Assembly: GCA_019057375.1 (NCBI GenBank) | Contig: DXJF01000051.1 | Span: forward strand, 1-11,541 | Reading direction: 5' to 3' | DNA from: Candidatus Heimdallarchaeota archaeon | Lineage (GTDB): Archaea; Asgardarchaeota; Heimdallarchaeia; Heimdallarchaeales; Heimdallarchaeaceae | Length of the DNA: 11,541 nt | In this document: piece by piece, positions 4,135 through 10,500 of the stretch | Layout: the number at the start of each line of letters is the position of its first letter | Position numbering within the stretch: position 1 is the first letter of the stretch | The notes under the pieces: model-generated | Seen by the model: the letters and a program-made list of their open reading frames with translations, nothing else | Told to the model about the DNA's origin: nothing | The model's database searches: none | Position numbers and translations under genes: made by a program

Positions 4135-5934
4135 TTGACTGAAACAGTGCTTAAAGAATTACTTCACGTAGAACAATTAATTGATGAAGAAGATAACAAG
4201 AAAGCATTAGAACTTTTAGAAAAGATTTCTAAACGAGAGGGGTTGTCAATTGAAGATAAACTTGCTTGTACTTTACTTGAATCTCGAATAAATCTTAAAC
4301 TAGTTGAAAGAGAAAAAGCACTTAAAAAAGTTGAGAAAATTTGGCCAACAATTCGTAAACTAGAAAATCCATTACTTATTTTGGATTATTTGATAATTAA
4401 ATCAAATGCTTCTTGGACTATGGGTGAATTTGATAAGGGTATCAAAGCAGTTGAAGAACACTTGGATTTAATTGCAGAATTGCAACTAAAAATACCTAAA
4501 AATAAAGAAAAACGTTTCAAGATAAGAAAAAGTGAATTTCTGCGACATGGAGGTATCTTATATTGGTATAAGGGTGATCTTGACACCTCTCTAGAATTTC
4601 ATAAACAAAGTTTAGTTAATGGAGAAGAGGTAAACAATAAGATTTCCATTGCAGATTCTTATAATAATATAGGTCTTGTTTATTGGTCAAAAGGTGATTT
4701 CGATAGATCAATTGAGTATTACAATCGTGCATTGAGTATCTTTGATGATTTAGGGATTAAGCAAAAAGTTGCTCGTATTTTGACTAATTTAGGTATTGCA
4801 TATTCACAGAAAGGGGATCTTGACAAAGCATTAGAATATCAGCAACGAAGTTTGGAAATTAAAAGGAAATTAAGTATCAAAAGAGATATTGCTATCTCAG
4901 TTATTAATGTAGGTGTAGTATTTCAATTGAAAGGTGAACTCGATCATGCATTAGATTATTATCAAAAAGGACTTCAACTAACTGAAGAGATAGATTCCAA
5001 GCCTTATATCGCTCTCGCACTAAATAACATAGGTAATATATTTGATTTGAAGGGTGATCCTAATTCAGCTATAGAGTATTTTGAAAGAAGCTTGAAGCTT
5101 TACAAAGAGCTTGGTATTAAAGAAAAAATTGCCTTATTACTTGTAAATATTGGTTCTTATTGTAGTCAAAAAGGCAATTTTAAGGAAGCATTTGATAATT
5201 TTAATCAAAGTTTAGTAATTTATGAAGAAATAGGGAATAATTTGGGTTCTTCAGTAGTTCTTCTTGAACTTGTACAAGAAGCACTGGAACAAAATGAACA
5301 GGAATTAATTGAAGAGTATTTGAATAAATTTCAACAAATCAATAAATCTGCGAATATTCGTTCAATTGATCAACGTTTCCGTTTAGCAAAAGCGCTTTCA
5401 TTTAAGGTTAGTGATCAAGCTCGCATCAAAACAAAAGCGATAGTCTTATTTGAACAAATCATTGAAGAAGAAATCGTAGATCATTCACTAACTGTTAAAG
5501 CAATGGTTCACCTAAGTGATTTGTTGATAAGAGAACTAAAACAAACAGCAGAAATTGAGTTGTTAAAAGAGATTAAGGAATTAGTACAAAAACTTCAGAA
5601 AATTGCTGAAGAACAATCATCCAATTCGATTCTTGCAGAAATATACAGATTGGAAGCATTACTAGCTTTAGCAGAACTTGATTTGAAGGAAACTAAGCAG
5701 TTATTACAGAAAAGTCTTGTTCTTGCTGAGGAAAAAGGTCTTGAGAGCATTGCATCAAATATACGTGAAGAACAGAACAGATTAACAGAGCAAATTACAC
5801 TATGGGAGGAACTTCAAAACCGAAAAGCTCCTTTACAAGAAACTTTACAATACGTAAGAATAGAGGAATCTATTAAAAAGTTGCAACATGAAGAAACAGT
5901 CACATCCAGAAAATTATTTTCATTAAAGATCTAG
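4135..5934 (+). CDS. Tetratricopeptide repeat protein (about six ~40-aa MalT-like TPRs) with helical N- and C-terminal regions
   Basis: Repeats such as SYNNIGLVYWSKGDFDRSIEYYNRALSI and ALNNIGNIFDLKGDPNSAIEYFERSLKL recur with a 40-aa period. SD GGTGAT at 4124-4129 precedes TTG 4135. Confidence 0.92.
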   Translation: MTETVLKELLHVEQLIDEEDNKKALELLEKISKREGLSIEDKLACTLLESRINLKLVEREKALKKVEKIWPTIRKLENPLLILDYLIIKSNASWTMGEFDKGIKAVEEHLDLIAELQLKIPKNKEKRFKIRKSEFLRHGGILYWYKGDLDTSLEFHKQSLVNGEEVNNKISIADSYNNIGLVYWSKGDFDRSIEYYNRALSIFDDLGIKQKVARILTNLGIAYSQKGDLDKALEYQQRSLEIKRKLSIKRDIAISVINVGVVFQLKGELDHALDYYQKGLQLTEEIDSKPYIALALNNIGNIFDLKGDPNSAIEYFERSLKLYKELGIKEKIALLLVNIGSYCSQKGNFKEAFDNFNQSLVIYEEIGNNLGSSVVLLELVQEALEQNEQELIEEYLNKFQQINKSANIRSIDQRFRLAKALSFKVSDQARIKTKAIVLFEQIIEEEIVDHSLTVKAMVHLSDLLIRELKQTAEIELLKEIKELVQKLQKIAEEQSSNSILAEIYRLEALLALAELDLKETKQLLQKSLVLAEEKGLESIASNIREEQNRLTEQITLWEELQNRKAPLQETLQYVRIEESIKKLQHEETVTSRKLFSLKI

Positions 5935-6086: not shown

Positions 6087-6470
6087 ATGAAATTCTTCTG
6101 TAAAAAATGTGAAAACAGATTCGATGGTGAATATAAAGATCTTTTTGAACAGTTAAAATGTCCAAATTGTAAAAAAGAGGATAATGTACTAAATTTCATC
6201 ATTCAAGGTGTGCATCCTCCTGAAGCTGGTTTAGGCATATCTTATTGGGAATTTGAAGATGTCTTGGAAGAGGGTAAAGTAAATTATCTTAGAGAGTTCT
6301 TTGAAGAAGAATTCAATCTTCACTATTCTAGAAATGGTGATGAATTCATATTAGTGGAGAAATCTGGTCAGAAGGTTGATTTAAAGAACATTTTTGAAAA
6401 AACTCAGAATGATGGTAAACTTCAAAGGATGGTTTACAACATTTACTATGTCTTATTACATGGGTACTAG
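6087..6470 (+). CDS. Zinc-ribbon protein (N-terminal CxxC-x16-CxxC) with an acidic C-terminal domain of unknown function
   Basis: MKFFCKKCENRF...LKCPNCKK. ATG start; same strand as the gelsolin gene and 68 bp upstream of it. Confidence 0.8.
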   Translation: MKFFCKKCENRFDGEYKDLFEQLKCPNCKKEDNVLNFIIQGVHPPEAGLGISYWEFEDVLEEGKVNYLREFFEEEFNLHYSRNGDEFILVEKSGQKVDLKNIFEKTQNDGKLQRMVYNIYYVLLHGY

Positions 6471-6538: not shown

Positions 6539-7222
6539 ATGAATGTATTTCATATTGTAGGAAATGAACTGATACCAATCAAGGAACCTTATCAGTTCAT
6601 TTCTGGTGATGTTTATGTCATTGAAACAGAAATTAATCTCTGGATATGGTTAGGTTCCAAATCCTTTGCTGATGAGAAATTCATAGGCTCTTGGGGAGCA
6701 AAGAAGATTGAAGACAAAAATAAGGAACTGAAAATTGAAACTATCAATCAAGGTTTAGAACCTGCAGTGTTTAAGGAGCAGATTGATTTTGAAGTGGTTG
6801 AAGGAGATACCTTAGGTTTTCTGAAATCAATTGATACAAAGTATGAGAAAGATTTCAAATTACTTCAAATTAAGGAGAATGATGAAGGAGAGATAATAGT
6901 TTCAGAACTACCTGTTGAACACAAACACTTTCAATCCGATGATGCTTTTGTTTTAGATGCTTTTAACATTCTTTATGTTTGGATTGGTAAAGATAGTCAA
7001 GTTAAAGAAAAATATGAAGCCGGTAGAATTACTAGACAGCTAGAAGTAGAAAGAAAAAGATCTCCAATCATTTATGTGATTGAAGAAGAAAATGAACCTG
7101 ATGGTTTTCGTGAGCTTATCTTTAAATTGGGATTAAGGGACGGAATTCTGGAATTAAGGAAGACAGTTAAAAAAGCGGAAGGATTTACATCCAAAAAATG
7201 GTGGCAATTCTGGAAAAGGTGA
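6539..7222 (+). CDS. Two-domain gelsolin/villin-family actin regulator (Asgard 2DGel type) with a C-terminal extension
   Basis: Two gelsolin cores (GDVYVIETEINLWIWLGSKS..DEK; DDAFVLDAFNILYVWIGKDSQVKEK), each followed by a QG/EE-x-EP-x-x-F motif. The linker EGDTLGFLKSI resembles the gelsolin G1-G2 linker GGVASGFKHV. Confidence 0.9.
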   Translation: MNVFHIVGNELIPIKEPYQFISGDVYVIETEINLWIWLGSKSFADEKFIGSWGAKKIEDKNKELKIETINQGLEPAVFKEQIDFEVVEGDTLGFLKSIDTKYEKDFKLLQIKENDEGEIIVSELPVEHKHFQSDDAFVLDAFNILYVWIGKDSQVKEKYEAGRITRQLEVERKRSPIIYVIEEENEPDGFRELIFKLGLRDGILELRKTVKKAEGFTSKKWWQFWKR

Positions 7223-7381: not shown

Positions 7382-7518
7382 GCCCCCTTCGAAATTCATA
7401 TTGCAAGTTAAAAAGTAGTGAATTTAGATTGTTTTGTTTCGTTAAAGGAGTAAGAATTTTCTGAGAACTAGTTTTTAATTAAGATTGAACTTGAAAAAGT
7501 TCCAATTTGAGCAAAAAT

Positions 7519-7731
7519 ATGGAGGAATCCAACTTGAAAGGCGTAATTAAAAGAATAATGTATGACCGAAATTATGGGTTCGTCAATGTCGAAGGAGAAG
7601 AAAAAGAAGTCTTTTTCCATCGTTCTGGAGTTAAAGAAGACTTTAACGACCTGAAAGAAGGAGACGAAGTAGAATTCGATGTTGAAGAAACTGATAGAGG
7701 TTCTCAAGCAACAAATCTGGTTAAAGCTTAA
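7519..7731 (+). CDS. cspA: Cold-shock domain protein (CspA family)
   Basis: RNP1 (RNYGFV), RNP2 (VFFH) and C-terminal EGDEVEFDVEETDRGSQATNL. ATG 7519 is preferred over TTG 7507. The symbol is at family level only. Confidence 0.93.
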   Translation: MEESNLKGVIKRIMYDRNYGFVNVEGEEKEVFFHRSGVKEDFNDLKEGDEVEFDVEETDRGSQATNLVKA

Positions 7732-7893: not shown

Positions 7894-9144
7894 TTACCCC
7901 TTTAGTATCAACCTAATGTAGAGATCTATTTCTTCACCATTTTTGGTCAAACTTGTAACAAATAGAGTTTCATAATTCCTAATATCCTGTTCTTTCAGTG
8001 TTAGATTAAGTTCAACTTCCTCGGGATCTTTCTTATCAACCAACCAAAAAGAAGGTTCAAATTCAGGATCATGGCTATAACCTTTATTCTTAATGATTGA
8101 AAGAAGCATATCTAAAGTTATAGTGTCTGGAATTGTTATTTCCTCGATTATGGTTGCAGCTGAACCACATAAAGCACACTTTTTGTTAGGTGGCTTTTCT
8201 ATGTAAAAGAATTTACCAACCAAACCATTGTAAATAACATATTCCTTGTTTACTGTACCAAGTTTGATTCCTTTGGTATGATGGAGTATTTTAAGAGCTT
8301 CTTGTGATTGCAAAGAAGCTATTACTGCATTCATTGTAATTATTGTAGGATCATGCTGATCAACCATCTTTACGGCTTCGTCAATTGTAAAAATGCCTTT
8401 ATCTGGAAAATGCTCTTTAACTAAATTGTTAGAATAATCTAGAACAATATTCATTTCTTCTATGACTGTGGTATCAGGAATTCTGTTATGTTTTGATTCA
8501 AAAAATAACTGCCCTTTAAGCAGGCAGTGAGATCTTTTTCTGGGTATTCCAACCAAAGTACAAGCTGCCAAAGTTTCTCTTTCTCTCTCAATCTGAGGAT
8601 CACATTGAAGACAAGCATTCTCTCCTGGAGAGTAAGTGTAAACATGACCATAGTATGTTGCTGTTCCTCCATCAATCATAGGTTTCTTGAAATGAACAGC
8701 TCTACGATTTAATTCAGATCTTGCAGTAACTGAATCTAATCCAGAAATTATTAGATCAGCTGTTGCATATACTTCAGGATTAACATCTTCAAGATTTGAG
8801 TGATGCCAAATATATTTGCTAAAAGGATTAATTTTCTTTAAAGCTCTAGCTGAAACCTTGGATTTAGGTTCCCCCTCATCAGCATCTGAAAATAAAATTT
8901 GTCGATTAAGATTAGAGTATTCAATAATATCCAGATCTATCAAATGCAAAGTACCAACTCCTGCCATAGCCAGATTTTTAGCAATTTCTGTACCTAATCC
9001 TCCAATTCCAGCTATAACCACCTTGGAATCCTTCAAAGCTTTTTGATTCCATCCTGGTAATCTAAGTTGTCTATCTAGACGTTTTCTTTCTTCTTTAGAG
9101 AATGTTTCATTAAAAAAATTTGATTGTTGTGATTCGTTGCTCAT
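7894..9144 (-). CDS. Ubiquitin-like-protein activating enzyme E1 of eukaryotic Uba2/Uba3 type (ThiF adenylation domain, catalytic-Cys region, C-terminal ubiquitin-fold domain)
   Basis: GIGGLG nucleotide loop, DIIEYSNLNRQILF, GLDSVTAR, IDGGT, Zn ligands C178xxC181 and C323xxC326. AAC195TLVGIPRKRSHC207 parallels Uba3 PMCTIASMPRLPEHC. C-terminal NLTLKEQDIRNYETLFV resembles the UFD. SD GAGGAG lies at 9151-9156 on the minus strand. Confidence 0.93.
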   Translation of the reverse strand: MSNESQQSNFFNETFSKEERKRLDRQLRLPGWNQKALKDSKVVIAGIGGLGTEIAKNLAMAGVGTLHLIDLDIIEYSNLNRQILFSDADEGEPKSKVSARALKKINPFSKYIWHHSNLEDVNPEVYATADLIISGLDSVTARSELNRRAVHFKKPMIDGGTATYYGHVYTYSPGENACLQCDPQIERERETLAACTLVGIPRKRSHCLLKGQLFFESKHNRIPDTTVIEEMNIVLDYSNNLVKEHFPDKGIFTIDEAVKMVDQHDPTIITMNAVIASLQSQEALKILHHTKGIKLGTVNKEYVIYNGLVGKFFYIEKPPNKKCALCGSAATIIEEITIPDTITLDMLLSIIKNKGYSHDPEFEPSFWLVDKKDPEEVELNLTLKEQDIRNYETLFVTSLTKNGEEIDLYIRLILKG

Positions 9145-9178
9145 TGTATACTCCTCAATTATTACTCTACTTCTAGTA

Positions 9179-9234
9179 TGAAAAAATAATGATTGTTTGA
9201 AAAAATAATGGAATGAGAAAGAGAAATTCTTTCT
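9179..9234 (-). terminator. Candidate internal terminator or attenuator between Ubl and E1: a 7-bp hairpin followed by two identical oligo-T boxes
   Basis: AGAAAGA 9216-9222 pairs with TCTTTCT 9228-9234. A 13-bp direct repeat TGAAAAAATAATG lies at 9179-9191 and 9198-9210 (CATTATTTTTTCA on the coding strand). Confidence 0.45.
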
Positions 9235-9257
9235 TGGATATTGATTACTTCTTCTAT

Positions 9258-9617
9258 TTATCCTGCAGTTGATACAGGGATAAGTAGAATTGTATCTCCA
9301 TCTTCAACGCCATAATCATCTAAGATATCATCTGAATCACAGGTTCTTCCTGCGTGAGACAGATGAAATTCATCTGGAGGTAGTCCAAATATTTGACTAA
9401 CAGTATATTTGATGTCACCAATTGGTGCATCAGTGGCAACAACAAGTTTCTCTTGTTTTGGACTTGGTCCGATAGTGCTTTGGAAATAAACACTAATTTT
9501 CTTACTTCCAGGAGTCTTTGACTTTTCAGGTGTCTTTGAGATAATTTCTTCTTCCTCAACTTCCTCTTCTTCTTCATCAAAGGATAATTCTTCAAATTCT
9601 TCGCTCATAATAACCAT
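9258..9617 (-). CDS. Ubiquitin-like modifier with an acidic N-terminal extension and a C-terminal Ala-Gly
   Basis: Beta-grasp pattern KISVYF...DAPIGDIKYTVSQIFGLPPDEFHLSHAGRTCDSDDILDDYGVEDGDTILLIPVSTAG aligns by eye with ubiquitin/SUMO. Codons TCA ACT GCA GGA TAA. Lies directly upstream of the E1 on the same strand. The start may be ATG 9608. Confidence 0.88.
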   Translation of the reverse strand: MVIMSEEFEELSFDEEEEEVEEEEIISKTPEKSKTPGSKKISVYFQSTIGPSPKQEKLVVATDAPIGDIKYTVSQIFGLPPDEFHLSHAGRTCDSDDILDDYGVEDGDTILLIPVSTAG

Positions 9618-9864: not shown

Positions 9865-10500
9865 ATGGCAAACAAAAAAAAGAAAAATAAGATTTCTTCC
9901 AAGATTCCAAAGCAAAAATATCCATATGAGTCTAAAATCCCCAAGGAGAAAATTCCAAAACAAAGATTAGATGATAGTGATCTAATTCCTCCGAAAAAAC
10001 AAAAAAGGAAAAAAGATAGTCAAATTCCTGCTCGAGCGCAATTACGAAGTACTTCAGAGAGGAAAAATAGTTCTCAAATTCCTAAACAGAAAATCCCTAA
10101 ATCGAAAATTCCTAGCCAAGATAAACTAAAAAAGACAAAAGAACCAAACTACATTCCAGTTGAGAAAACATCAAAAATTAAAGCAAAGAAGGAAGAAGCA
10201 ATTCCTAAAAGAGAAACTTTCAAAGATATCGAAGGCATGGAATCAAGAGCTATGGAGAAAAGGAAGAAAGAAAAAAAGGAAGAAACTCCTCCTTCAAGTG
10301 ATAAGGATAGATTCTCTGAAATCGAAGGTATGGAATCCCGACCACTTCCAAAGGAAGAAAAAAAGGAGAAAAAGGAGAGAAAGTCTCCAGCTGCTTCCCG
10401 AATAGAAGAAGTTGTACAAGAGAAAACTCCAAAGCAAAAAGTACCAACTCAAAAATACCCTAGTCAGACAAAGTTACCAAAGCAAAAGAAACCAAAATGA
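9865..10500 (+). CDS. Lys/Pro-rich, probably intrinsically disordered repeat protein
   Basis: Manual count: 54 Lys and 23 Pro in 211 aa; no Trp, Cys or His. Recurrent hydrophobic-P-x-x-K pentads (PKQK x4) and a duplicated F-x-[DE]-IEGMESR motif. Long ATG-started ORF in AT-rich DNA. Confidence 0.75.
   Translation: MANKKKKNKISSKIPKQKYPYESKIPKEKIPKQRLDDSDLIPPKKQKRKKDSQIPARAQLRSTSERKNSSQIPKQKIPKSKIPSQDKLKKTKEPNYIPVEKTSKIKAKKEEAIPKRETFKDIEGMESRAMEKRKKEKKEETPPSSDKDRFSEIEGMESRPLPKEEKKEKKERKSPAASRIEEVVQEKTPKQKVPTQKYPSQTKLPKQKKPK
10228..10337 (+). repeat. In-frame internal duplication encoding IEGMES (ATCGAAGG[C/T]ATGGAATC), 93 nt apart
   Basis: 16/17 nt identity between 10228-10244 and 10321-10337; the single difference is synonymous. 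Confidence 0.85.

What the first reader, a model, noticed from the sequence alone, without database searches (positions are those of the whole stretch)
7154..7222. Gelsolin with a C-terminal WH2-like LRKT motif and a KKWWQFWKR putative membrane anchor
Seen: after domain 2 come a helix (FRELIFKLGL), LELRKTV, and a terminal KKWWQFWKR. A second LKKT-like motif (LKSI, 6821-6832) sits in the interdomain linker. Established: WH2 motifs are a helix plus LKKT-type sequence that binds actin; Trp/Phe clusters flanked by Lys/Arg partition into membrane interfaces; Asgard 2DGels regulate actin. Inference: the protein could bind two actin subunits while tethered to the membrane, linking actin to the cortex in a way relevant to Asgard protrusions. 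Similar K-x-WW-x-FW tails also occur on unrelated prokaryotic proteins, so novelty needs checking.
Basis: partly seen in the sequence, partly recalled or inferred. Interest (0 to 1): 0.7.

Follow-up and report, generated by a model that had tools for sequence, protein, structure and literature searches.

The report
Membrane-tagged gelsolin of Heimdall archaea
This archaeal actin-cutting protein (a two-domain gelsolin) ends in a short tryptophan-rich tag, KKWWQFWK, that also ends dozens of unrelated bacterial, archaeal and phage proteins. The tag most likely sticks the protein to the inner face of the cell membrane, but that has not been tested.

Summary
ORF 6539-7222(+) encodes a 227-aa two-domain gelsolin (2DGel) of a Heimdallarchaeaceae genome.

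LKSI is the already published interdomain WH2-like motif. ELR-x-TV is conserved in most relatives but is predicted helical, and it degenerates in deep-branching members. Its actin binding remains untested.

The KKWWQFWK tail is nearly invariant in 68 cluster representatives (51-96% identity). It occurs once per genome in this family, and a tail-less paralog usually coexists.

In sister families the same position carries MinD-type membrane-targeting sequences (for example KRGFLSRLFGRG). So does the crystallised Heim2DGel (PDB 7whf, ...KKKGFFGRLFGR), whose tail role was published as "unclear".

The exact octapeptide also ends proteins in at least 62 unrelated bacterial and archaeal clusters, and it sits at the termini of phage proteins. 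Selection acts on the peptide, not the DNA. In Bacillus plasmid DUF3967 proteins it replaces the lipid-binding tail of TubY, which has been validated experimentally in B. cereus.

Best reading (about 0.65): a flexible spacer plus a portable amphipathic membrane-targeting tag that places a calcium-regulated actin severing and capping protein at the membrane. I found no description of this.

The parts
6539..7222 (+). Gene for a 227-aa two-domain gelsolin (2DGel), stop codon included
   Evidence: ORF list and translation. Pfam Gelsolin E 1.9e-19 with two stretches. PDB 7whf E 8e-45 and 7c2h/7c2g E 1e-28.
6593..6772 (+). Gelsolin domain 1 (core matched by Pfam PF00626)
   Evidence: the genome search PF00626 hit at C151:6593-6772. 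AF2 strands 2-38, helix 46-60, strand 65-70.
6821..6832 (+). Interdomain WH2-like motif LKSI (L95-I98) within a disordered linker
   Evidence: Aligns with LKHV of Heim2DGel, which is described as a WH2-like motif in PMC9433394. L95 is invariant in alignment A1. pLDDT is below 50 for residues 92-101.
6899..7111 (+). Gelsolin domain 2 (core matched by Pfam PF00626)
   Evidence: Pfam stretch 121-191. Genome search hit at C151:6899-7111.
7106..7180 (+). C-terminal helix of domain 2 and its extension (residues 190-214). It contains the conserved D201-G202 and ELRKTV (205-210, 7151-7168).
   Evidence: AF2 helix 190-214, with pLDDT 87 falling to 72. Motif counts among 67 of the 68 WW-tail homologs (one lacks an E-[LMQV]-R anchor): E 67/67, L 62/67, R 67/67, T 59/67, V 56/67. 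D201 is invariant in all 51 aligned 2DGels.
7169..7192 (+). Variable charged spacer (KKAEGFTS, residues 211-218)
   Evidence: Length and sequence vary between homologs, with 9-16 residues (mostly 12-14) between ELR and WW. pLDDT is below 50 from residue 214.
7193..7219 (+). Terminal tag KKWWQFWK(R), residues 219-227: a putative amphipathic membrane-targeting sequence
   Evidence: Conserved in 68 cluster representatives. The helical wheel separates W, W, F, W from K, K, Q, K. The same octapeptide ends at least 62 unrelated protein clusters. The pattern hit at C151:7193-7216 is the only one in this genome.

Best explanation
The gene encodes a calcium-regulated two-domain gelsolin of Heimdallarchaeaceae. 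Its two gelsolin domains and the interdomain LKSI strand bind actin as in the solved Asgard 2DGel-actin complexes.

Beyond domain 2 the chain continues as an extended helix (with ELRKTV), then a short variable charged spacer, and ends in KKWWQFWK(R). On contact with a bilayer this octapeptide would fold into two helical turns. Three Trp and one Phe would lie on one face, in the lipid interface. Three Lys and Gln would lie on the other face, towards anionic head groups. It would thus act as a weak, reversible membrane-targeting sequence of the MinD/FtsA/TubY kind.

The tag would concentrate actin severing and capping at the inner face of the membrane. Because one tag binds weakly, it would favour filament-bound arrays and so link actin filaments to the membrane. 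The tail-less paralog in the same genome would act in the cytosol.

Shown: gelsolin identity, conservation of the tail, its amphipathic arrangement, its interchange with MinD-type tails, and its portability. Inferred: lipid binding itself and its effect on actin.
For: 1. Identity.

2. Conservation: 68 of 120 homologs keep KKWW-x-FWK down to 51% identity, while the spacer varies.

3. Same position, different sequence, same chemistry. 2DGels of sister families in the order end in KRGFLSRLFGRG, KRGFFSRLFGRKS, KKRGFFSRLFRRG, KKKGLFARLFSC, KKGFWSKIFRR, KKSFWDKLKFW and KKRSWWKRLLGLK. Heim2DGel 7whf ends in KKKGFFGRLFGR. The E. coli MinD membrane-targeting sequence is KGFLKRLFGG (PMC5471200). Inside the family, one derived clade swapped the WW tail for FFWFFTKK, GFLSFLKKK or FLDSFKRKVFSVLKK.

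4. Portability. Of 120 ORFs, 108 carry the motif within 5 residues of the stop, and they fall into 62 unrelated clusters. 27 of 32 synonymous versions and all three stop codons are used, and the 3' flanks are unrelated. Phage contigs carry it at C-termini (88) and N-termini (19).

5. Experimental anchor. Bacillus plasmid DUF3967 proteins end in KKKWWQFWLK or KKKKWWEFWK. They align end to end with TubY of pBtoxis, which ends in KKSFLQKIFGK. The TubY tail of B. cereus binds liposomes and is needed for membrane localisation (PMC7762940).

6. Biophysics: helical moment 0.69-0.79, and a Wimley-White interfacial sum of -3.1 kcal/mol against -0.6 for the MinD sequence. The 20 residues before the tag are polar. 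AF2 gives low confidence after residue 214 and a short helix at 221-224.

7. Removing the Heim2DGel tail left actin disassembly intact but changed localisation in human cells (PMC9433394).
Against: No lipid-binding data exist for this octapeptide or for any Asgard gelsolin.

The exact sequence, including Gln or Glu at position 5 (114 of 120 in the viral scan), is kept more strictly than simple lipid partitioning seems to require. That could point to a specific partner.

A minority of carriers are exported proteins (about 12 of 99, by a crude test), and some are phage portal proteins. No single compartment or lipid explains all cases.

One 8-residue tag is probably too weak alone: a single TubY tail did not localise GFP to the membrane.

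Archaeal ether lipids differ from the bacterial lipids used in all the validated examples.
Confidence: 0.65

Rival explanations
1. The tail is a second actin-binding element. ELRKTV would act as a WH2-like LKKT strand after domain 2, and/or the Trp cluster would dock on actin. One molecule would then hold two actin subunits, or bundle or nucleate filaments.
For: RDG-ILE-LRKTV resembles the WH2 consensus (G-x-x-L-[KR]-K-[TV]; the consensus is from my own knowledge). After the shared EP-x-x-F-[KR]-E-x-I, domains 1 and 2 are each followed 12-13 residues later by an L-[KR]-x-[TI] motif. ELR-x-TV is kept in most tail-bearing homologs. The first 10-20 tail residues of other 2DGels contact actin or calcium (PMC9433394).
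Against: The segment is predicted helical, not extended. TV is lost in early-branching tail-bearing members (LELRNDD, REMRRKP, IEQRKKE), while the WW tag stays invariant. The same octapeptide occurs in bacteria and phages that have no actin. Sister families carry MinD-like tails and no ELRKTV. Pfam WH2 finds nothing, though it also misses the accepted linker motif.
Confidence: 0.15
2. The octapeptide is a specific recognition tag for a conserved protein partner (chaperone, protease/degron, assembly factor) or a self-association sticker, and not a lipid binder.
For: The 8-mer is conserved exactly across unrelated proteins and phyla, with a strong Gln/Glu preference at position 5. Its terminal position is typical of degrons and docking peptides.
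Against: Carriers span Bacteria, Archaea and phages, and include cytoplasmic and exported proteins, so no single protein partner is shared. In two independent families the tag alternates with generic amphipathic MinD-like tails. No conserved neighbouring gene exists. A destabilising tag on a cytoskeletal regulator or a portal protein is unlikely.
Confidence: 0.1
3. The tail is an intramolecular latch that folds back on the gelsolin domains and keeps the protein inactive without calcium, like the C-terminal helix latch of eukaryotic gelsolin.
For: Eukaryotic gelsolin uses a C-terminal helix to block G2 in the calcium-free state (established knowledge). Asgard 2DGels are strictly calcium controlled (PMC9433394).
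Against: AF2 gives no confident docking of residues 214-227 (pLDDT about 40). The tag works as a portable unit on unrelated folds. Tail-less 2DGels such as Thor2DGel are already calcium controlled (per PMC9433394, and my recollection of the PNAS 2020 abstract).
Confidence: 0.05

Closest known systems
Heim2DGel (Heimdallarchaeota LC_3 two-domain gelsolin, PDB 7whf; Akil et al. 2022, PMC9433394)
   Same: Two gelsolin domains, interdomain WH2-like motif (LKHV vs LKSI), extended domain-2 helix, charged tail, and a basic-aromatic amphipathic end.
   Different: Its tail is 68 aa and ends in a MinD-type KKKGFFGRLFGR. Here the tail is about 35 aa, carries ELRKTV and ends in KKWWQFWKR. The paper calls the tail's role unclear and does not mention lipids or amphipathic helices.
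C-terminal membrane-targeting sequences of MinD (KGFLKRLFGG) and of TubY
   Same: Extreme C-terminal position, 8-11 residues, basic plus aromatic/hydrophobic amphipathic helix after a flexible linker, transplantable, and weak unless the carrier oligomerises (PMC5471200; PMC7762940).
   Different: It is Trp-rich (three Trp) with a fixed Gln/Glu. The sequence is far more uniform across unrelated carriers. It is also used at N-termini of phage portal proteins. Lipid binding is untested.
Pfam DUF3967 (PF13152), C-terminal 35 residues of Bacillus plasmid MerR-like proteins
   Same: The model ends in the same KKWW[QE]FW motif.
   Different: It is a family-specific model of unknown function. The gelsolin tail does not match it. 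It does not describe the tag as portable.
Eukaryotic gelsolin regulation by PI(4,5)P2 through basic/hydrophobic sites near the G1-G2 linker (established knowledge)
   Same: A gelsolin whose activity is coupled to the membrane through a short basic-hydrophobic lipid-binding stretch next to an LKKT-like segment.
   Different: The eukaryotic sites are internal and lipid-specific, and they release actin. Here the site is a terminal generic tag whose effect on actin is unknown.
Synthetic and natural Trp/Arg-Lys membrane-active peptides (Combi-1 Ac-RRWWRF-NH2, puroindoline; PMC6017362)
   Same: The basic-basic-W-W-x-F core is almost the same as KKWWQF. These peptides bind bilayer interfaces.
   Different: Those are free antimicrobial peptides. 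Here the motif is a covalent tag on intracellular proteins.

Membership tests
Asgard two-domain gelsolin (2DGel), gelsolin superfamily | Two gelsolin-homology domains | tested here: met
   Pfam PF00626 E 1.9e-19 with two stretches; genome hits at 6593-6772 and 6899-7111; the AF2 fold elements repeat in both halves; the two halves align with each other at E 9e-6.
Asgard two-domain gelsolin (2DGel), gelsolin superfamily | Sequence similarity over both domains to solved 2DGels | tested here: met
   7whf E 8e-45 over residues 2-202; 7c2h/7c2g about 1e-28; 7whg 1.6e-16.
Asgard two-domain gelsolin (2DGel), gelsolin superfamily | LKKT-type WH2-like motif between the domains | tested here: met
   GFLKSI aligns with GFLKHV of Heim2DGel; L95 is invariant.
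Asgard two-domain gelsolin (2DGel), gelsolin superfamily | Calcium-dependent severing, capping and sequestering of actin | not testable with these tools
   Needs biochemistry. The genome encodes an actin (Pfam Actin E 5.6e-134).
WH2 domain (applied to the C-terminal FRELIFKLGL...LRKT segment) | Match to the curated WH2 profile | tested here: inconclusive
   No Pfam hit up to E 10 for residues 183-227. The accepted interdomain motif (residues 70-110) also gives none, so the profile cannot decide.
WH2 domain (applied to the C-terminal FRELIFKLGL...LRKT segment) | Amphipathic helix followed by an extended LKKT/V strand, free to dock on actin | tested here: inconclusive
   The helix plus LRKT spacing is WH2-like by eye. 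However, residues 190-199 are the structural short helix of domain 2 (F190 is invariant even in tail-less 2DGels), and LRKT lies inside predicted helix 190-214 (pLDDT about 72).
WH2 domain (applied to the C-terminal FRELIFKLGL...LRKT segment) | Conservation of the LKKT-like residues among orthologs | tested here: inconclusive
   Among 67 of the 68 WW-tail homologs: L 62/67, R 67/67, T 59/67, V 56/67. The motif degenerates in early-branching tail-bearing members.
WH2 domain (applied to the C-terminal FRELIFKLGL...LRKT segment) | Binding to actin | not testable with these tools
   The one complex job (actin plus residues 186-227) was not folded by the tool's policy.
Amphipathic terminal membrane-targeting sequence (MinD/FtsA/TubY type) | Short segment at the extreme terminus after a flexible linker | tested here: met
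   1-2 residues follow the last Trp in 65 of 68 homologs. The spacer is variable and has low pLDDT. Linkers are polar in 99 carriers.
Amphipathic terminal membrane-targeting sequence (MinD/FtsA/TubY type) | Helix with one aromatic/hydrophobic face and one basic face | tested here: met
   Wheel positions: F, W, W, W at 140-300 degrees and K, K, Q, K at 340-100 degrees. Moment 0.69-0.79, in the top 6-7% of permutations. Interfacial sum -3.1 kcal/mol.
Amphipathic terminal membrane-targeting sequence (MinD/FtsA/TubY type) | Interchangeable with validated membrane-targeting sequences at the same position in homologs | tested here: met
   MinD-like tails occur in sister-family 2DGels and in 7whf. 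The TubY tail and the DUF3967 WW tail align at the same position.
Amphipathic terminal membrane-targeting sequence (MinD/FtsA/TubY type) | Direct, reversible binding to lipid bilayers | not testable with these tools
   Needs liposome and localisation assays.
Tripartite C-terminal sorting signals (LPXTG, PEP-CTERM, PGF-CTERM and the like) | N-terminal signal peptide, plus a C-terminal signature, a transmembrane helix and a basic cluster | tested here: not met
   The gelsolin has no hydrophobic N-terminus and no transmembrane-length segment. Most carriers lack signal peptides. No NCBIfam sorting-signal model hits.

The most novel reading that the evidence does not exclude
ELRKTV and the KKWWQFWK tag together form a lipid-switched second actin site. 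At the membrane the tag inserts into the bilayer and frees or blocks the adjacent WH2-like segment. Membrane contact would then switch capping, uncapping or nucleation. This would be an archaeal forerunner of PIP2 control of eukaryotic gelsolin and of membrane-actin linkers, built from a tag that is itself an undescribed, cross-domain universal membrane address.
Probability: 0.15. Interest if true: 0.85.

Novelty: new variant of a known kind. Interest (0 to 1): 0.7.

Why it matters
Heimdallarchaeia are among the closest known archaeal relatives of eukaryotes, and their cells form actin-filled protrusions. How their actin is coupled to the membrane is not known.

If these tails bind membranes, most 2DGels of this order are membrane-addressed actin regulators. 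That includes the one already crystallised. The tail-less paralog would provide a cytosolic counterpart. This gives a simple, testable route for cortical actin control before eukaryotes arose. It also explains a published but unexplained observation, the tail-dependent localisation of Heim2DGel.

Separately, KKWW[QE]FWK appears to be an undescribed, very compact terminal tag shared by many unrelated bacterial, archaeal and phage proteins. It could serve as a predictor of peripheral membrane proteins and as a minimal targeting tool.

Tried and rejected
1. Complex prediction of the genome's own actin (alignment A2) with residues 186-227 was not folded, under the tool's policy on eukaryote-like chains. 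The job was counted. It gives no evidence either way, and I did not try another route.

2. Pfam WH2 and any other family on the isolated tail and linker: no hit up to E 10, which is uninformative.

3. Conserved gene neighbourhood (TPR protein, Zn-ribbon protein, E1/Ubl pair): not conserved in three related loci. I therefore dropped an operon partner, and a TPR receptor for the C-terminal peptide.

4. A genome-wide sorting signal: no other ORF of this genome ends in the tag. In 400 Asgard genomes the only in-frame hits are the family's gelsolin genes; the single other hit (G123) is out of frame.

5. A mobile-element or DNA-level origin of the shared tail: rejected. 27 of 32 synonymous versions occur, all three stop codons are used, and the flanks are unrelated.

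6. NCBIfam and Pfam on ten carriers: no model covers the tag, except DUF3967 in one Bacillus family.

7. Literature string searches for KKWWQFWK and its substrings: no paper holds them. Searches for Asgard gelsolin plus amphipathic helix or membrane targeting found nothing relevant.

8. Hydrophobic-moment statistics for the MinD-like tails were not significant when the flanking lysines were included. I do not rely on them.

Full report
**What is in the window**

The ORF at 6539-7222(+) translates to 227 residues. It carries two Pfam gelsolin repeats (E 1.9e-19). It is most similar to the solved Heimdall 2DGel (7whf, E 8e-45 over residues 2-202), then to Thor 2DGel3 (7c2h/7c2g) and eukaryotic gelsolins.

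- LKSI at 6821-6832
- LRKT from 7154
- KKWWQFWKR at 7193-7219, with the stop at 7220-7222

The genome (3.47 Mb, 159 contigs) also encodes an actin (Pfam Actin E 5.6e-134) and a second 2DGel of 208 aa that ends ...KEDKKLEKKK, without any tail. Near-identical proteins in public data are labelled Heimdallarchaeaceae.

**The linker motif is known**

GFLKSI aligns with GFLKHV of Heim2DGel. Akil et al. 2022 describe this interdomain LKKT-like sequence as the WH2-like motif of 2DGels: LRRV in Thor, LKHV in Heimdall, LVDV in Loki (PMC9433394). It is therefore a family feature and not a new observation.

**The tail is real and conserved**

Of the 120 best homologs:
- 68 end in [KR][KR]-W-[WY]-x-[FV]-W-[KR], followed by 0-1 residue in nearly all cases.
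- 10 keep ELR but end in another aromatic-basic sequence or in a near-variant of the WW tail (KKWWHFFKR, KKRWQFWK).
- 42 are the tail-less 203-209-aa paralog type, or fragments.

Within the 68, the two flanking Trp are invariant. The second position is W in 64 and Y in 4. Phe is present in 67 of 68. The x position is Q 53, R 6, E 5. The spacer between ELR and WW varies in length (9-16 residues, mostly 12-14) and in sequence.

AlphaFold2 with a 51-sequence alignment gives mean pLDDT 76.5. The two domains are confidently folded. The linker 92-101 is disordered. A long helix spans 190-214 and contains LELRKTV at pLDDT about 72. Confidence is low from residue 214, with a short helix at 221-224.

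**Distribution in Asgard archaea**

In the order that contains this genome, 44 of 47 genomes have a 2DGel. In the window's own family, 25 of the 30 other genomes have a full-length match that includes the tail. Most of them also have the tail-less paralog.

A back-translated pattern, searched in 400 genomes of the phylum, matched 18 genomes. Seventeen are genomes of this family (G000 included), each with a single hit; the 16 that I could compare with the gelsolin gene coordinates lie at that gene's 3' end. The remaining hit is out of frame inside another gene. The reversed-pattern control matched nothing. In this genome no other ORF ends in the tag.

The gene neighbourhood (TPR protein, Zn-ribbon protein, cold-shock protein, E1 and ubiquitin-like genes) is not conserved in three related loci.

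**What sister families carry at the same position**

I extracted 2DGel genes from other families of the order. Their C-termini are:
- KRGFLSRLFGRG
- KRGFFSRLFGRKS
- KKRGFFSRLFRRG
- KKKGLFARLFSC
- KKGFWSKIFRR
- KKSFWDKLKFW
- KKRSWWKRLLGLK

Each follows a long charged spacer. One protein had no such end, and three others have large unrelated C-terminal regions.

One of these proteins aligns over its whole length with the crystallised Heim2DGel and shows that 7whf ends ...KDKLKKKGFFGRLFGR. The E. coli MinD membrane-targeting sequence is KGFLKRLFGG (PMC5471200).

The 2022 paper never mentions amphipathic helices, lipids or MinD, and it states that the roles of the tails are unclear. It does report that deleting the Heim tail left calcium-triggered actin disassembly intact, and that GFP-tail was excluded from the nucleus. 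This fits a localisation role.

**Evolution of the tail**

I built a maximum-likelihood tree of 42 sequences. The root is a midpoint root for drawing only, and some tail columns were included in the alignment.
- The MinD-like-tailed families separate from this family (support 100/99).
- Inside the family, the tail-less paralogs form one clade (100/99) nested among WW-tailed sequences.
- The sequences with alternative tails (FFWFFTKK, GFLSFLKKK, FLDSFKRKVFSVLKK, FFDFLKRKK) form one derived clade.

If the root lies between the families, the WW tag is ancestral here. It would have been lost once after a duplication and exchanged once for a different hydrophobic-basic end. An aromatic-basic amphipathic C-terminus is thus kept across the order while its sequence changes.

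**The tag is portable across domains of life**

My estimate of the chance expectation is about 0.1.
- In 108 of 120 ORFs the octapeptide lies within five residues of the stop, and in 80 it is the very end.
- The 103 longer carriers fall into 62 clusters with no detectable similarity upstream of the tag.
- They come from Bacteroidota, Bacillota, Planctomycetota, Chloroflexota, Pseudomonadota, Myxococcota, Verrucomicrobiota, Nanoarchaeia, Methanoperedens and others.
- 27 of 32 synonymous codon versions occur, all three stop codons are used, and the 3' flanks are unrelated. Selection therefore acts on the peptide.

Carriers include HTH, zinc-ribbon and TPR proteins, the cytoplasmic end of Wzz/BY-kinases, MORN-repeat proteins and choice-of-anchor-J-like exported proteins. 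About 12 of 99 have signal-peptide-like N-termini by a crude test. The 20 residues before the tag are less hydrophobic than the rest of the protein (0.24 vs 0.33).

I also scanned phage contigs with the fifth codon left free. They fall into 37 clusters. The free position reads Q 98, E 16, K 3, S 2, Y 1.

**An experimental anchor**

The Bacillus carriers belong to a large plasmid family: a MerR-type HTH, a coiled coil, and Pfam DUF3967, whose 35-position model ends in the tag. Examples end KKKWWQFWLK and KKKKWWEFWK.

TubY of pBtoxis is the MerR-family gene next to TubR and TubZ. It ends KKSFLQKIFGK and aligns end to end with a DUF3967 protein (E 5e-7), with the two tails in register.

For B. 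cereus TubY, the C-terminal tail becomes helical with lipids, is required for liposome co-sedimentation, and is required for peripheral localisation in B. subtilis. A single tail on GFP is not enough; the tetramer is needed (PMC7762940). I did not see the B. cereus tail sequence itself.

So in a second, unrelated family the WW tag and a validated MinD-like lipid-binding tail alternate at the same position.

**Physical plausibility**

On a helical wheel, F, W, W, W occupy 140-300 degrees and K, K, Q, K occupy 340-100 degrees. The helical moment is 0.69-0.79, in the top 6-7% of permutations. The Wimley-White interfacial sum (scale values from memory) is -3.1 kcal/mol, against -0.6 for the MinD sequence. 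The core KKWWQF is almost the synthetic membrane-active hexapeptide Ac-RRWWRF-NH2 (PMC6017362).

**The LRKT question**

RDG-ILE-LRKTV resembles the WH2 consensus. After the shared EP-x-x-F-[KR]-E-x-I, each domain is followed 12-13 residues later by an L-[KR]-x-[TI] motif. Among 67 of the 68 WW-tailed homologs, R207 is invariant, T is present in 59 and V in 56.

Four points count against a WH2-like role:
- The segment is predicted helical.
- The helix 190-199 is the structural short helix of domain 2; F190 is invariant in all 2DGels.
- Early-branching tail-bearing members have LELRNDD, REMRRKP or IEQRKKE at this place.
- The sister families lack the motif.

Pfam WH2 is silent for the tail, but it is also silent for the accepted linker motif. 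The only available in-silico binding test was not folded. The claim of a second actin site stays open, at roughly 0.15-0.25.

**Verdict**

The gelsolin identity and the linker motif are known biology.

The new points are these:
- A conserved terminal tag on Heimdallarchaeaceae 2DGels.
- 2DGels across the order, including the published structure, end in membrane-targeting-like sequences.
- KKWW[QE]FWK is a cross-domain portable terminal tag. I found no description of it in Pfam or NCBIfam (other than within DUF3967) or in the searchable literature.

Membrane binding is the best-supported mechanism (about 0.65), but it is inferred and not shown. The unusually strict sequence, especially Gln or Glu at position 5, is not explained.

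Noticed in passing
PDB 7whf chain G, C-terminus (seen through L165:711-1496:-): The crystallised Heim2DGel ends in KKKGFFGRLFGR, almost the E. coli MinD membrane-targeting sequence KGFLKRLFGG. The paper that solved it calls the tail's role unclear and reports tail-dependent exclusion from the nucleus.
   Followed up: partly
L176:1949-3178:+ and about 18 other viral loci (L177, L218, L235 and others): A family of about 410-aa phage portal proteins (phrog_12) begins M-[ST]-KKWWQFWK, so the same tag is used at an N-terminus. It may tie portal or prohead assembly to the membrane.
   Followed up: partly
L312:343-879:+, L313:304-843:+, L073:5055-5678:-; L314:31828-32373:-: Bacillus and Priestia plasmid DUF3967 proteins (more than 750 plasmids, including pXO2-type) are MerR-HTH/coiled-coil proteins that end in KKWW[QE]FW. 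They align end to end with TubY of pBtoxis, which has a MinD-like tail. DUF3967 proteins may be membrane-binding TubY-like segregation factors.
   Followed up: partly
window 7894-9617 (-): A ThiF-family E1-like enzyme (416 aa, Pfam ThiF E 3.9e-57) lies next to a 119-aa ubiquitin-fold protein that has an acidic N-terminal tail and ends ...VSTAG. No E2 gene is in the window.
   Followed up: no
window 6087-6470 (+): A 127-aa protein with two CxxC pairs near the N-terminus (CKKC...CPNC) and no Pfam match lies directly upstream of the gelsolin. It is not a conserved neighbour in related loci.
   Followed up: partly
window 9865-10500 (+): A 211-aa lysine/proline-rich low-complexity protein with repeated IPKQK-like units and a duplicated F-x-[DE]-IEGMESR motif. 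No Pfam match.
   Followed up: no
window 4135-5934 (+) and 7507-7731 (+): A 599-aa TPR-repeat protein (TPR_12 E 5e-46) and a 74-aa cold-shock-domain protein (CSD E 3.2e-17) flank the gelsolin gene.
   Followed up: no
L052, L074, L102, L112, L115, L122 (Bacteroidales): Exported proteins with a weak choice-of-anchor-J match (25 bits, below the 30-bit cut-off) end in ...VVEGRQKKWWQFWK. That domain family is defined by carrying alternative C-terminal anchors, so the tag may serve as one more anchor type outside the cytoplasm.
   Followed up: no
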